Shown here piece after piece: positions 7,497 through 13,017 of a DNA stretch of 64,000 nucleotides. The translations under genes were made by a program, and so were the position numbers. The notes under the pieces were generated by a model, which had not been told where the DNA came from, searched no databases, and saw nothing but the letters and a program-made list of their open reading frames with translations. Location of the stretch: the NCBI GenBank assembly GCA_001662655.1, contig KV460232.1; one strand, 5' to 3'. Numbering within the stretch: position 1 is the first letter of the stretch; every line of letters begins with the position of its first letter. The DNA comes from Pseudogymnoascus verrucosus (Eukaryota).

Positions 7497-7557
7497 CAAG
7501 CTTGTGTATGGCAGAGTCGACAGGATGCCCAATTCTCTTAAGTCTATGGTCGCATGT
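7497..7557 (-). pseudogene. 5S rRNA fragment (5' half, degenerate)
   Basis: 52/61 matches by eye to the intact 5S copy at 41639-41699. Confidence 0.85.
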
Positions 7558-7632
7558 AGTAGTTATAGTGATACTCCACATTAAGTACTCCATTCTCATC
7601 GTATTTATCTAGTACGACGTCTAACTCTTCCC

Positions 7633-8291
7633 TTAAGACCCGAAATCATCACAGTTATTACTCTCACCAATCTCAATCCAGAATTCGTACTGGCTCTGCT
7701 TCGTTCCTCTCACTACCTCAACCCCATCATCTCTTTTTCTAATACACTTGTCATGAATGGCCTGAGCATTTTGTGCGATCTCGGCTTGCTTCATACAGAA
7801 ATGCGGCGCGCCCCATCGCTGGAAATATAATCAGTATCATAGAATATAATGGAAGAAGAGCGCATACATAGGTCTGTAGCCAGATCCCAGCGTGAATGCC
7901 ACCGGGCTGATGGCATTCGCCTGCACGCGTCCAACCCTGGTTTGGAGTACGCAAGTCATCCTGGGGCATTGCGATGTCTTGTCTGTCGAGATCGTAGTGA
8001 ACGGGGAAGTTCTTTTTCTTGCTCCCATCGTTGAAGGCGCAGATGACTTTTTCGGGGTCTTCGTTCAGACTGTCGATGGCTAGTTGCATTGCTAATGCAG
8101 AGACTTCTTCTTGTTGGTCGCAGGCAATTTCTCCATCCTTCATACCAGCATGAACCTAGGAAAACATGTTTAGTATAATGGACTGTAAAGAAAGGATGTA
8201 TTAAGCCATTTACCCCTAAGCTGGCTGTTAAAACCACGAGTAGAAAGCTTAGCTTTGGAAGCGACTTTGCAAAGAAGGAAAGGATAGCCAT
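7633..8291 (-). CDS. Small secreted cysteine-rich protein (183 aa, 6 Cys), effector-like
   Basis: Exons 8291-8214, 8155-7868 and 7818-7633 join in frame at canonical GT-AG sites; signal peptide MAILSFFAKSLPKLSFLLVVLTASLGVHA; C-terminus CMKQAEIAQNAQAIHDKC...VRG...FWIEIGESNNC. Confidence 0.75.
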
Positions 8292-9347
8292 TATAGCTCT
8301 CAAGGCGTTTATCAAGATACGAGATATTTTCAGATGAAGAAGGTGCTTCCCAGAACTGTTATATCTTTGTAATGAGTTTGAGCTGTAGAACGGTTATGAG
8401 TGGACTGGTAGAAGTTGCTCGATTAAGAGGACTGGCAGCTTCTTTATTATGGCTTCAGCGCAGCTCCTTCGAATCTAGATTGACAGATAACTATTTTTAG
8501 GACATGTCTATGAAGTTATCAACCTAGTGACTGCGGGACTATCGGATAGACACAGCCCGTGGACCTATTCTCTATGTAGTGTGATATACTGACGATTTAA
8601 TGCTGAAACAAAGCTAAGGAATCCTATATAATCCTCTTCCTTCTAAAGAAAGCCTAGTATAATATTAGGCGGAGAATTCAAGATCGATCTTTAAGCTCTT
8701 TCCGACTATTGTGTGGGGTTGGATTGTAACGAGCCCCTCATAGTATCGTTTAAACTGGGGAAGAGTTGCAACTCTCATATTGATCGGCGGGTATGCCGTC
8801 ATGTAGACCCAGATTTAATGTGCATCGGCAGCTAATCGCGAACGAAGGAGCTGCCAATGCTTTATATGGAGAAGCTAACAAACCTGCCATCAATCAGCTG
8901 CCAGAGTTACATGAGCTGTAAATAACTTCAATCTCAACCGTCCTTAGCGTTGTTCATAGCCATGTGCCCATTTAAGCATCAATCCACAACATACATCCTT
9001 AGAGTGGTGCACATCATCGGCCATTATCGACGATACATTCCGAATTAAGTTTTGAGAGGATTCAACGCTAAATCCTTCATAGCAATGCCCTCTACGGTGA
9101 TCAAGCACGCGACGATCATGTTACTGCAGGTGCTGCGGTGTTGGTTTACCATCGCTCTCTTCCGAGTCTAACTTTTTGAAAGGGTGACTATTATTAGGCT
9201 TAGGATGTTCTGATATAAAGAGAACCCTCGCGCCTTATCATATATTAAGTGGTCCAGATTCACATACGCCATCTCGCTGCCTCATATTGGTTCTCCCTTG
9301 GCTTTTTATCCTTATTTCAGCTTGATTATTCCTATTACACGACAGAA

Positions 9348-10284
9348 ATGCTTTCTTCCATCTTTCTCGCCGGTCTCTTGACCGCGTCTACGTTTGCTTT
9401 TCCTTTCGAAATCCCCGCGGCTATTCAAGCACGAGGCGATCAAAAGTACTGTGATGCCGATGTCATGAATGCCGACCCGCCAAATGAGTACTGCTATCAG
9501 TTCTGCGATTTTAAGACGGTCAGGAGAGTTTCAGAAAAACGTAAGTCTTCCCCGACTACTACTTTTGTGCTGTCCAAAATCAGAAAGCTAGAGGCTGACA
9601 TTATCTGCGTACCACAGCTGTCCAGGTATCTGAGAGGAGCCACTGCACCGGCGGTCCCGCAGGAGGATGCCCAATTGCCATCTTAGACCAGGCAACGATT
9701 GAAGTATCGTCCACCGAGACCCACGGAACTTCAGACACAACGACAGTAAATGCCGGGATTTCGTTTTTCGGTGCTAATCTTGGAGTCTCCTTCGCGCATT
9801 CGGTAGAATCATCGCATGCAAGCACGCACGGGACATCAACATCAACAGCTTCAACAAACACGCTATACATCCCCGAAGGCAAGGAAGGGCACGTGGTGTT
9901 CTTCGCCTACTACGAGGAGCATTGTGGCATTTCGGCTGCGATACGCAAGGCAAACCTACAGGACGACAAGGATTTCGACTGCAATCCTGATTACAACCTC
10001 CTAATTAGCCACGACGCCAATGTGGATAGCATAAAGGGGATGCAGTACAACTGGGACGGGATTCATCCGGGTGATATCTATAACTACGTAGACGTAAGTA
10101 TTTTTTCTTTTCTTTTACGGCTACTTATTAGAACTTCTAAATTAACGCGTCGCAGGCTTGCATCCGACTTCCAATGACAACAGTTAACGGCCATGCCAAG
10201 GGCCAGTACCAAGTATGCGACAGTGACAACACGGATAACGCTTGCAAGGAGTGTCTGGGTTGCGATGCGGAAGAAGATGCTTAG
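9348..10284 (+). CDS. Secreted Cys-rich protein (265 aa) with aerolysin/ETX-MTX2-like beta-pore-forming signature
   Basis: Exons 9348-9540, 9618-10093 and 10156-10284 in frame; signal peptide; Ser/Thr-rich strands flanking the alternating segment VNAGISFFGANLGVSFAHS, followed by LYIPEGKEGHVVF. Confidence 0.75.
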
Positions 10285-10911
10285 TGGGTGATTGTAATTA
10301 CATTGGCAGATAGAAAGGCAGGGCATAAGTTATATCTGGAGGATTGATGATAGAACGAATTAGAACAAACATGCCAACATAACACATTAGGCTTATTGTA
10401 GCTTGATCAGCTTCAATGAAAGCAGGCTTACATGTTTTTTGCCGTTTATTCCTATGATAGGTATAAGCGGCATGCCTCTGCCATCTTGTGACTGCATGTC
10501 GTCATGTTTGAAGTTAGTCGCGGGATGACGATGTCTAGGGCAATGTGATAATTTCAAGTTTTCTCGTCAACAAACCACACCAAAGGCGAGCCCCCAATCT
10601 ACCAGTCCACAGCGAAGCAGATGTAGTCTTGGAATTTTAGTTTTAATTATGCCTACATTTATTGTTATCGGGCAATGTATACACGTTAAAAAACTGGGCA
10701 TATTCCAACGCCAACACACAACACGCCCTGGGCGAACCTATTAAATCGCTGTTCTATCAACAGCATGCTTTTTCTCTCTCGCGTCTTCTGTTAACCCTCC
10801 CCCCGGGCTCCAGTTAATATTACATCTTGTCGTCGCCCTCTTCTTCCCCGTATTGTTTCTTGTCCCCGGCCGAGTCGCCCCGTCGAGTCGTCGAGTCGTC
10901 GACCCAATGCC

Positions 10912-11959
10912 CTATACCACCGACGCCTCCCTATGCCTCGGGAACAAGCCCCTCATCCCCTGCCCACCCTTCGTCGTCGTCGTCGTCGCCGTCGGCTCCG
11001 GCACCTCCTCACGAATAATGTTCGACCGCTGCGGCGCATTGGTCGTATACCCCGACTGGACGTTATCAGTCGCGAACCCCTGGTTTCCCGGTGGATATCC
11101 GACGTTGCCATTGTACGCCGTCTCCTTGGCGTAGCTGCCCGAGTCGCGCTTCTTGCGACCGATCAGGACCCCGCCGAGGAACAGGCAGGCGGAGAGGAAG
11201 AGCAGCACGAGGGAGGTCCAGGTGAAGGCGAATGCGTAGCGGCCGACGCTGGCGCTGCGGCCGTCGCTCTGGAACCGGTCGCGGGCTTTCACGAATACGG
11301 CGCTGGGAGGGAGGTTAGTTGTTGGAGGATGGAGGATTGGAGCGAGGGTAACTCACCTCATCAAGCAGGCGGCCAAGCATAGCCAGAAGGTCGCAGCGAG
11401 GGTGAGCAGACCGGTTGCGCCTGCGACCACGCGGATGCATGACAGGACACCGCTCAGGGCGGCAAAATTGGCAAAGATGAAAGCGATGAAGAAAAACACC
11501 CATCCGAAGCGCCACATGTAGTAGTAGTACTTGGACGTAGTATTATGGCCGTGGGATCTACGCCTCCATTAGCCCCGCACTTCCAACAATTTCATTCCAC
11601 AAAAACTCACCCGACCAGCGCCGAAGGCGCACCCGTTGAGTTTCCTCTCCACGCATAACCCAGCGGCAAAGCCGGAACCGGGCTCCCGCAGTTATTATTA
11701 TTGTCGCCGCAGACGTACCAGAACGTCCACTGGGAATTGGGTCGCGCGTCCCCAATGCCCGATGTGTCGGCGCGGAGGAACCAGATCTTGTTCAGTGGGG
11801 TGTGGTTCGTGACGCCCGATAGGACCACCAGCCACAGCATCACCAGGGCACCGGCGAGGAGGATCCATGATACGGCCCCGAGGAGGCCACCTGGGGTTTA
11901 GTTTAGCTAGGAGCTCTCCGAGACCCGGTGGGCTACATACGCTTTCCCGCGCCTGCCAT
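10912..11959 (-). CDS. SUR7: SUR7/PalI-family tetraspan eisosome (MCC) membrane protein
   Basis: TM1, then PLNKIWFLRADTSGIGDA...SQWTFWYVCG..NNNCGSPVPALP, YYYYMWRFGW and GRYAFAFTW; three introns. Confidence 0.88.
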
Positions 11960-12953
11960 TTTTGAGAATTAAGAGGGGTCTGTAATCGAGCGTTACGGGT
12001 TACGCTGGGCTTTGGAGATAAGTCAGTTTTCAACTTCGTCGGGACACCTCGCAGCCGACTTGCCTTCCAATTTTATTTGTTGAAGAGCCCGGGATGTGGT
12101 TACTGGACCGTGATCGTAAGGTGACAAATATTAAGATTCCGCAGCAAAATTTTAGAATCAATCAAGAGGAAGTAACAAGGTCAAAGGAAGGTAAACGAGG
12201 GTGTGCTGATACTTAAGCCTTAAATTATTCCCAACATCCAAGTTCTCGTAACAAACGTACGAACAACGTAAGTGCGGACCCTGATATCATCGAATGACGA
12301 CAACCACTTCTCCCACCCAACTCACCCCCAATTCGCTGCACAACGAAGCCCGTTTGTGTCAAAACCCAGCGAGAAATCTTGCATCACTGCCCAAACTATA
12401 GCATCGAGCTATGAGATAATGGCGTGGTTCGGAAGTCATAAATGACGCCTACTCTGTGAGACTAGGTGAGACCATGTGAGACTACATTGGACGAAAGTGC
12501 CGCTAGAAGAGTAGAAGTTGGCTAGACGGCTGGCCGGAACTCACACATAAGACAGCCGCCATGCCCGAGGGGGTAAAGTTGCTGTCTCAGAAAAACTTTT
12601 AGAGAAAGCAGGGAATGGCCGAATTGGAGCGAGGCGGGATCTGGTAATATGGCGGTAATGGTTGACAGCATCACTGGCATCTTGTCATAGTTCGGACGGA
12701 TGACTAAGCGGATCTGATTAGATCGTGATGGCATCTTGGAACTTTTCAAAACATAACATTGCGGTCGTGCGTGGGTAAGAAAGGGAAGGCAGGAATAAAT
12801 AATTTGATTGCTTTCTCCGCCCCAAAATCACACATAACAATAACACATCTCAGTCCATATTCCCTTCTCCCTCCCACCCAGGCGGTACTTCAACTCCAGG
12901 GGCCAAAAATTCAACAAAATAAAACGGCAAAAACCGAAAAAGAAATAACAAAA

Positions 12954-13017
12954 ATATACAACGGTGGGTATTCGCTGGTGGTCAACGCACCCAACTACTA
13001 ATCCACCGATCTCAAGC
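12954..13017 (-). pseudogene. 5S rRNA fragment (3' half) with its Pol III T-run terminator
   Basis: Near-identical to 41581-41642, then similarity stops abruptly after CTCAAGC; the A-rich tract at 12905-12953 corresponds to terminator T-runs on the minus strand. Confidence 0.9.

What the first reader, a model, noticed from the sequence alone, without database searches (positions are those of the whole stretch)
7497..13017. Two complementary half-5S rRNA genes, overlapping in CAAGC and in permuted order, bracket a 5.5-kb toxin-like gene block
Seen: a 5' half of 5S (7497-7557) and a 3' half with its terminator (12954-13017), both on the minus strand. Both end at the same internal point and share the 5-mer CAAGC, part of a CAAGCTTG palindrome. 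Their order is the reverse of a simple insertion into one gene, so joining 13017 to 7497 (circularising the segment) would rebuild one full-length 5S gene. Established: some Starship giant transposons (tyrosine recombinase captains) insert into dispersed fungal 5S genes, leave short direct repeats and fragment them. Inference: either two independent 5S-targeted insertions whose decayed cargo extends outwards (PKC-like and GPI relics on the left, F-box-like gene on the right), or integration/rearrangement of a segment through the 5S site. No recombinase gene is visible in this window. Caveat: weak similarity (ACTATTATCCAGAGGAT vs ACTACTAATCCACCGAT) may extend ~20 bp left of 7497, so that break may be less sharp.
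Basis: partly seen in the sequence, partly recalled or inferred. Interest (0 to 1): 0.72.

Follow-up and report, generated by a model that had tools for sequence, protein, structure and literature searches.

The report
Two dead Starship ends in 5S
The two half 5S rRNA genes are scars left by two separate giant fungal transposons that landed in neighbouring 5S genes and then decayed, a known behaviour; the DNA between them is most likely ordinary host chromosome, not a re-inserted circle.

Summary
Both halves are real and break at one 5-bp overlap (5S nt 57-61). In this genome 44 5S copies stop at nt 61, against 44 that run on and 4 departures at a control base. Three captain-side ends elsewhere lead into broken DUF3435 recombinases whose named relatives are Enterprise-family Starship captains; Aspergillus Osiris uses the homologous site. 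The permuted order is what two neighbouring same-strand 5S genes give when both are hit, and it recurs at two other loci. The window's two ends have different inverted-repeat types, its halves have flanks of different 5S sub-families, four relatives hold the block, and its SUR7 gene lies near the same core gene in another Pseudogymnoascus. No captain, partner end or empty site was found. 'Toxin-like' rests on one weak lead. Verdict: two relic junctions of a known element kind; circle re-integration is not excluded (about 7%). Seen elsewhere in the genome: ends that seem to carry their own 5S 3' half and leave the target gene whole.

The parts
4773..6037 (-). PKC-like kinase-domain gene; cargo status untested
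   Evidence: PF00069/PF00433; 64% DNA match to a paralogue on C4
6501..7441 (+). GPI-type cell-surface gene, stop 18 bp from the tail remnant; likely tail-proximal cargo
7459..7496 (-). Tail (3') end remnant of element 1, 38 bp, inner inverted repeat type A at 7479-7493
   Evidence: 23 genome matches, alignments, nhmmer with a profile built without this copy E 3e-8
7497..7501 (-). Direct repeat (CAAGC on +), 5S nt 57-61
7497..7557 (-). 5' half of 5S gene A (nt 1-61)
   Evidence: 85% to intact copies
7558..7598 (-). Upstream flank of gene A, 37 of 41 bases shared with the 5' half junction at C78
7751..8393 (-). Small ORF pair, possibly one spliced small protein, no family
9349..10290 (+). Probably secreted protein, three exons by inspection; weak aerolysin/ETX-MTX2-like lead
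   Evidence: three relatives among 1.84 billion representatives; searches gave no confirmation
10912..11897 (-). SUR7/PalI eisosome gene, single copy by DNA search
   Evidence: PF06687
12811..12953 (-). Terminator and downstream flank of gene B, shared (74%) with the intact 5S at C11 and in part with that at C10
12954..13017 (-). 3' half of 5S gene B (nt 57 to end); direct repeat at 13013-13017
13018..13080 (+). Captain-side (5') end remnant of element 2, inner inverted repeat type B; captain itself absent
   Evidence: 83% to ends at C6 and C25; nhmmer E 3e-11; no tblastn match in window
13100..13296 (-). Fragment of an unrelated high-copy repeat with a TG..CA-type end, probably a solo LTR, just inside the captain-side remnant
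   Evidence: 43 other matches; common end point
13575..15558 (+). F-box-like gene; cargo status untested
   Evidence: PF12937 only at E 0.063, below cut-off

Best explanation
Two neighbouring 5S genes on the same strand, 5.4 kb apart, were each hit by a different member of one Enterprise-family Starship lineage. Shown: the lineage's ends join 5S at the 5-bp overlap nt 57-61, tail against the 5' half and captain end against the 3' half, with the DUF3435 gene reading antisense to 5S. Inferred: the captain recombines the joint of an excised circle with the 5S site; element 1 lay left of 7497 and element 2 right of 13017; deletions and point mutation then removed nearly all of both, with their captains and the other 5S halves, leaving a 38-bp tail, a 63-bp captain end and perhaps some cargo (the GPI-type gene). 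The block between is host DNA that was never moved; the halves look complementary only because every insertion cuts at the same base.
For: 44 5' halves stop at nt 61, 44 run on, 4 depart at control nt 47; 27 of 30 fetched 5' halves carry the tail motif (14 of the 44 not fetched); 13 of 13 3' halves are preceded by the captain-side motif (two are probably one locus at contig ends). Broken DUF3435 genes start about 0.4 kb inside three captain-side ends; named relatives are fam06 = Enterprise. The same permuted order occurs at C57 (about 120 bp spacer) and C40 (10.4 kb, both elements keep their other end). Inverted repeats match within 17 hand-paired elements (mean 13.4 of 20 against 11.0 shuffled, 1 of 10000) while the window's two ends score 8, each fitting other partners at 16-17. 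The halves' flanks belong to different 5S sub-families. 4 of 4 relatives hold the block; one contig spans 6285-12777. SUR7 and IPI3 have locus tags two apart on one contig in Pseudogymnoascus sp. 05NY08. Flanks are core genes.
Against: No captain, partner end or matching other half was found on C27 (nhmmer over 1-288 kb and 366-386 kb; 288-366 kb only by exact or near-exact patterns), so both elements must be assumed almost wholly deleted. No empty site was seen in 4 of 4 relatives. Mismatched inverted repeats are not proof: two hand-paired elements also score 8 and 9, and a type-B captain end joined directly to a type-A tail exists at C71. Synteny in 05NY08 rests on locus tags, not on an alignment, and implies fewer genes between IPI3 and SUR7 there than here.
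Confidence: 0.84

Rival explanations
1. A 5.5-kb circle carrying one (chimeric) 5S, popped out between two 5S genes, was integrated by a captain into a pre-existing captain-end/tail joint of tandem elements, giving tail-5' half-block-3' half-captain end.
For: Geometry fits exactly. Seven direct captain-end/tail joints exist in the genome (C2, C3, C33 twice, C39, C64, C71), that at C71 with the window's B plus A combination. Starships move through circles (bioRxiv 10.64898/2026.09.21.753150).
Against: SUR7 lies near IPI3 in another Pseudogymnoascus; relatives are colinear; the block is single copy; the same order arises at C40 from two complete elements; needs two rare steps.
Confidence: 0.07
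2. One real insertion (13017) plus a short copied junction: the 140-bp stretch 7459-7598 (upstream flank, 5' half, 38 bp of tail) was pasted from a C78-like locus by ectopic repair.
For: The stretch matches C78 at 92% over exactly these 140 bp, upstream flank included, and the tail stops abruptly.
Against: Intact 5S genes here also duplicate with their upstream flank (2 clear pairs among 31 distinct intact copies); the GPI-type gene next to the tail recurs behind a tail at C40.
Confidence: 0.07
3. Two randomly decayed 5S pseudogenes whose complementary breakpoints are chance.
For: A few other fragments with other ends exist (L013, L016, L024).
Against: Both breakpoints abut conserved element ends; 44 against 4 at a control base.
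Confidence: 0.01

Closest known systems
Starship Osiris, Enterprise family (Aspergillus fumigatus; PMC12153272)
   Same: Enterprise-family captain, inserts in and fragments dispersed 5S genes; its direct repeats (aagcc to ttaagccac, Table S3/S4 rows) fall on the stretch that aligns by eye with nt 53-61 here; short terminal inverted repeats; clusters of 5S genes collect several insertions.
   Different: Here only end remnants remain, captains are broken, about half of all 5S 5' halves are cut, and several inverted-repeat types coexist. If the published repeats are written in element orientation, Osiris reads with 5S and these elements against it (not verified).
5S-targeting Starships in general (Enterprise, Arwing, Voyager families; PMC11162782, PMC9156397)
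   Same: 23% of 222 curated sites lie in 5S, at five or more internal target sites, judged disruptive.
   Different: Voyager inserts 20 bp from the 5S start, a different site. Table S13 with the curated repeats was cut from the held supplement, so the nt 57-61 site could not be matched to Fig. 5C.
tRNA-integrating ICEs and prophages (recalled, no call)
   Same: Tyrosine recombinase, circular intermediate, conserved RNA gene as target.
   Different: They usually carry a replacement gene end; the window's junctions do not, though four other ends in this genome appear to.

Membership tests
Starship | DUF3435 captain at the 5' end, reading inwards, in this window | tested here: not met
   no tblastn match better than E 0.5 in the window
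Starship | DUF3435 captain behind the same type of end elsewhere in the genome | tested here: met
   stop-ridden captains about 0.4 kb inside ends at C25, C27:385.8 kb, C52; none of the three is behind a type-B end like the window's
Starship | Short direct repeat at the boundaries | tested here: met
   same 5-mer at both window junctions and at both ends of paired copies
Starship | Terminal inverted repeats matching between the two ends of one element | tested here: met
   17 paired copies, 13.4 against 11.0 shuffled; the window's two ends do not match each other (8 of 20)
Starship | Both ends of each element present around cargo in this locus | tested here: not met
   no partner ends found on C27; 288-366 kb covered by patterns only
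Starship | Empty insertion site in a relative | tested here: inconclusive
   none in 4 of 4 runs; contigs mostly break at the 5S repeat
Enterprise family (fam06) | Captain placed in family 6 by the reference profiles or tree | tested here: inconclusive
   indirect only: 4 of 7 named relatives looked up are fam06, one n.d., two absent from the table; the C27 relic is about 66% identical to one of the four; no tree built
Osiris-like 5S site | Direct repeat within 5S nt 53-61 | tested here: met
   nt 57-61 here; Osiris empty-site strings aligned by eye
Aerolysin/ETX-MTX2 pore-forming toxins (gene at 9349-10290) | Family profile or fold match | tested here: inconclusive
   atlas lead only; no Pfam or PDB sequence match; model too poor to search

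The most novel reading that the evidence does not exclude
5S genes act as exchangeable attachment sites through which Starships pick up host DNA: a block between two 5S genes is either looped out and re-integrated into an element joint, or becomes the middle of a composite element bounded by the outer ends of two neighbours, and this window is the scar of such a capture. The same lineage seems to have captured a 5S 3' half and terminator into one of its ends, so that it restores the gene it enters.
Probability: 0.1. Interest if true: 0.72.

Novelty: new member of a known kind. Interest (0 to 1): 0.32.

Why it matters
As it stands it extends a known behaviour (Enterprise-family Starships cutting 5S genes) to a Pseudogymnoascus genome and shows that half 5S genes are a cheap marker for dead Starships that captain-based tools would miss: 66 tail and 46 captain-side motifs against 19 DUF3435 match rows, many of them parts of one gene. 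It also warns that permuted halves and a 13017-7497 'junction' read are expected without any circle. If the capture reading or the gene-restoring ends held up, they would give a concrete route for how Starships gain cargo and avoid harming their target; I found neither described in searches.

Tried and rejected
Rfam did not detect the halves. Search for a captain in the window: none. Two weak profile hits on C27 (226.5 kb, 273.7 kb) were inspected and are not element ends. The joint 13016 to 7505 in run X3 and 13019 to 7459 were rejected as evidence of a circle: any 5S copy, or any short whole element elsewhere, lays that way. Lack of cover in X4 left of 6285 and in X3 over 13.6-18.4 kb may mean accessory DNA but no contig joins across, so it is not used. 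Runs with small shares were not used. Dinucleotide indices showed no clear RIP signal in the block. The structure prediction for the toxin-like exon failed, so no fold search was run. The supplement search for the repeat motif gave only unrelated rows and Tables S11-S13 were cut. Earlier-findings look-ups returned nothing. The broad literature search returned no Starship paper among the 30 listed. The reading 'decayed 5S continuing to nt 80' was rejected: the stretch is the element's inverted repeat, which does resemble 5S nt 62-80 more than any other of 202 5S 19-mers (mean 9.7 against median 6.3 matches, 30 tails).
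Full report
Observation. The window is G000:C27:124001-188000 of a 30.2-Mb fungal assembly; the closest named proteins are from Pseudogymnoascus. 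It holds two intact 5S genes. Against them 7497-7557 is nt 1-61 (85%) and 12956-13016 nt 58-117 (93-95%), both on the minus strand. The commonest 5S variant among 30 fetched loci has the palindrome at nt 54-61, so the shared 5-mer is nt 57-61.

What lies beyond the breaks. A DNA search with 4300-7500 showed that 7459-7500 is repeated. A 22-letter pattern from it has 23 matches and a backwards control none. Of the 23, 16 follow a 5' half (or part of one) ending at nt 61, three follow the other end of the element, two follow a 5S terminator, one has no 5S, and one is the reverse-complement copy at an opposite end. On the other side, 13 of 13 3' halves not preceded by A carry a second conserved end, and 13018-13080 is one of them. 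Genome-wide, 44 copies stop at nt 61 (27 of the 30 fetched have the tail motif), 44 continue with the 5S base (one of these, C33:316205, is itself a junction by its distance to a tail motif), and 4 depart at control nt 47. These are exact-pattern counts, not a full census. End motifs number 66 and 46.

What the element is. DUF3435 has 19 match rows in the genome. At C52, C25 and C27:385.8 kb a stop-ridden captain begins about 0.4 kb inside the end that abuts the 3' half and reads antisense to 5S. Its closest named protein is 57% identical and carries PF11917. Of seven named relatives looked up in Table S4 of PMC11162782, four are fam06, one is n.d. and two are absent; fam06 is Enterprise. Osiris of A. 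fumigatus, also Enterprise, has direct repeats on the homologous 5S stretch (aligned by eye). So 13018 is a captain-side end and 7496 a tail end. The window has no captain, and no partner end or other half was found on C27 (288-366 kb by patterns only).

One event or two. Inverted repeats come in at least four types. In 17 of 18 hand-picked nearest tail-to-captain-end pairs (one dropped for lack of the tail motif) the two ends match at 13.4 of 20 on average against 11.0 when shuffled (1 of 10000). The window's ends score 8, while its tail scores 16-17 with four other captain ends and its captain end 16 with three other tails; two picked pairs score as low (8, 9), so this is support, not proof. 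The 5' half shares its upstream flank with a junction on C78; the 3' half shares its downstream flank with intact genes on C11 and C10, whose upstream is unlike the window's: two parent genes. The same order (captain end, 3' half, spacer, 5' half, tail) stands at C57 with about 120 bp between and at C40 with 10.4 kb, where both elements keep their far ends.

Is the block native. It is single copy apart from the 5S flank and holds SUR7. Contigs of 4 of 4 related runs cover it; one contig of X4 runs from 6285 to 12777 across the left junction, and X2 and X3 contigs carry the tail remnant joined to the GPI-type gene; on the right no contig bridges by the tool's 31-letter rule, though X3 and X4 hold the captain-side remnant. 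No empty site was seen, but contigs mostly break at 5S. In Pseudogymnoascus sp. 05NY08, IPI3 and SUR7 have locus tags two apart on one contig; here they are 25 kb apart on C27, so the block belongs to this neighbourhood, and the DNA between may be accessory. Further out lie core genes (Spt6, an oxysterol-binding protein, MIT1, an rRNA methyltransferase by Pfam; IPI3 by name of its cluster; HPPD by my reading). A paralogue of the GPI-type gene lies behind a tail at C40 in the same geometry, the only direct sign of cargo.

Mechanism and rivals. Best reading (0.84): two independent captain-mediated insertions into neighbouring 5S genes, then collapse. Shown: site, ends, orientation, captain family of relatives. 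Inferred: circle-to-target recombination (shown for Hephaestus in bioRxiv 10.64898/2026.09.21.753150), and the later deletions. Rival (0.07): a 5S-bearing circle entered a captain-end/tail joint; seven such joints exist, one with the window's type combination, but synteny argues against it. Rival (0.07): the left junction is a pasted 140-bp copy. Random decay is refuted.

The toxin-like gene. One exon gives an atlas lead to aerolysin/ETX-MTX2 clusters with a recognition value below threshold; Pfam, PDB sequences and folding did not confirm it; three relatives exist. It is not needed for the explanation.

Papers, what I saw. PMC11162782: passages, section 23, supplement part 1 and row searches; Tables S11-S15 were cut and may hold this site. 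PMC9156397: passages. PMC12153272: passages and supplement rows. PMC10104507: passages. PMC11623301: passages. bioRxiv 10.64898/2026.09.21.753150: first quarter and passages; its supplements were not seen. Searches found no paper on Pseudogymnoascus Starships, on 5S-mediated cargo capture or on 5S-restoring ends; the library lacks most subscription papers. The ICE/tRNA comparison is recalled.

Verdict. A real feature, explained by a known kind of element: new member, interest 0.32. The more surprising lead lies outside the window: three intact 5S genes with unrelated upstream flanks share one terminator that runs straight into an element tail (82-92% over 140-200 bp), and the same joint follows a 3' half at C6:534.7 kb, as if a sub-lineage carries its own 5S 3' half.

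Noticed in passing
L019 (C22:445197-445389), L024 (C17:224807-225005), L195 (C6:549833-550016), L088 (C6:534.7 kb): Three intact 5S genes with unrelated upstream flanks share a terminator fused to an element tail; the same joint follows a 3' half behind a captain end. Suggests a sub-lineage that carries a 5S 3' half and restores its target; rival: insertion just behind terminators. L114 (C1:1197935) is similar with another repeat type.
   Followed up: partly
C2:296.6 kb, C3:131.6 kb, C33:136.5 and 141.7 kb, C39:230.5 kb, C64:2.8 kb, C71:1.85 kb: Seven direct captain-end/tail joints across the 5-bp repeat, the sequence of a circle joint, some between different repeat types: tandem or nested integration.
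   Followed up: partly
genome-wide: About half of 5S 5' halves are cut at nt 61; many paired ends are only 3-15 kb apart with no captain seen, far smaller than typical Starships.
   Followed up: partly
window 41174-41293 and 41580-41699: Two intact convergent 5S genes 286 bp apart, both of a minor variant (8 of 44) that lacks the palindrome at the target site; whether this variant is hit less often was not tested, and one copy at C33:316205 appears hit.
   Followed up: no
C27:108.9-135.9 kb (L160, L159, window 1-11900): IPI3 and SUR7 are two locus tags apart in 05NY08 but 25 kb apart here; the stretch between (pectate lyase-like, HPPD-like, AAA ATPase, P450, PKC-like, GPI-type) may be accessory or rearranged.
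   Followed up: no
L110, L112, L158 (C8:403-417 kb, C63:149-162 kb): Paired elements hold chitinase- and LysM-like ORFs by inspection of translations, not checked by profile.
   Followed up: no
L153 (C2:387.5-388.3 kb): A tail end runs after about 50 bp into sequence like the inside of a captain-side end with a captain fragment: a rearranged element.
   Followed up: no
window 5261-5482: The PKC-like kinase reads AGFG where the DFG motif is expected (motif recalled), so it may be inactive.
   Followed up: no
window 61093-61193: Intron-containing tRNA gene.
   Followed up: no
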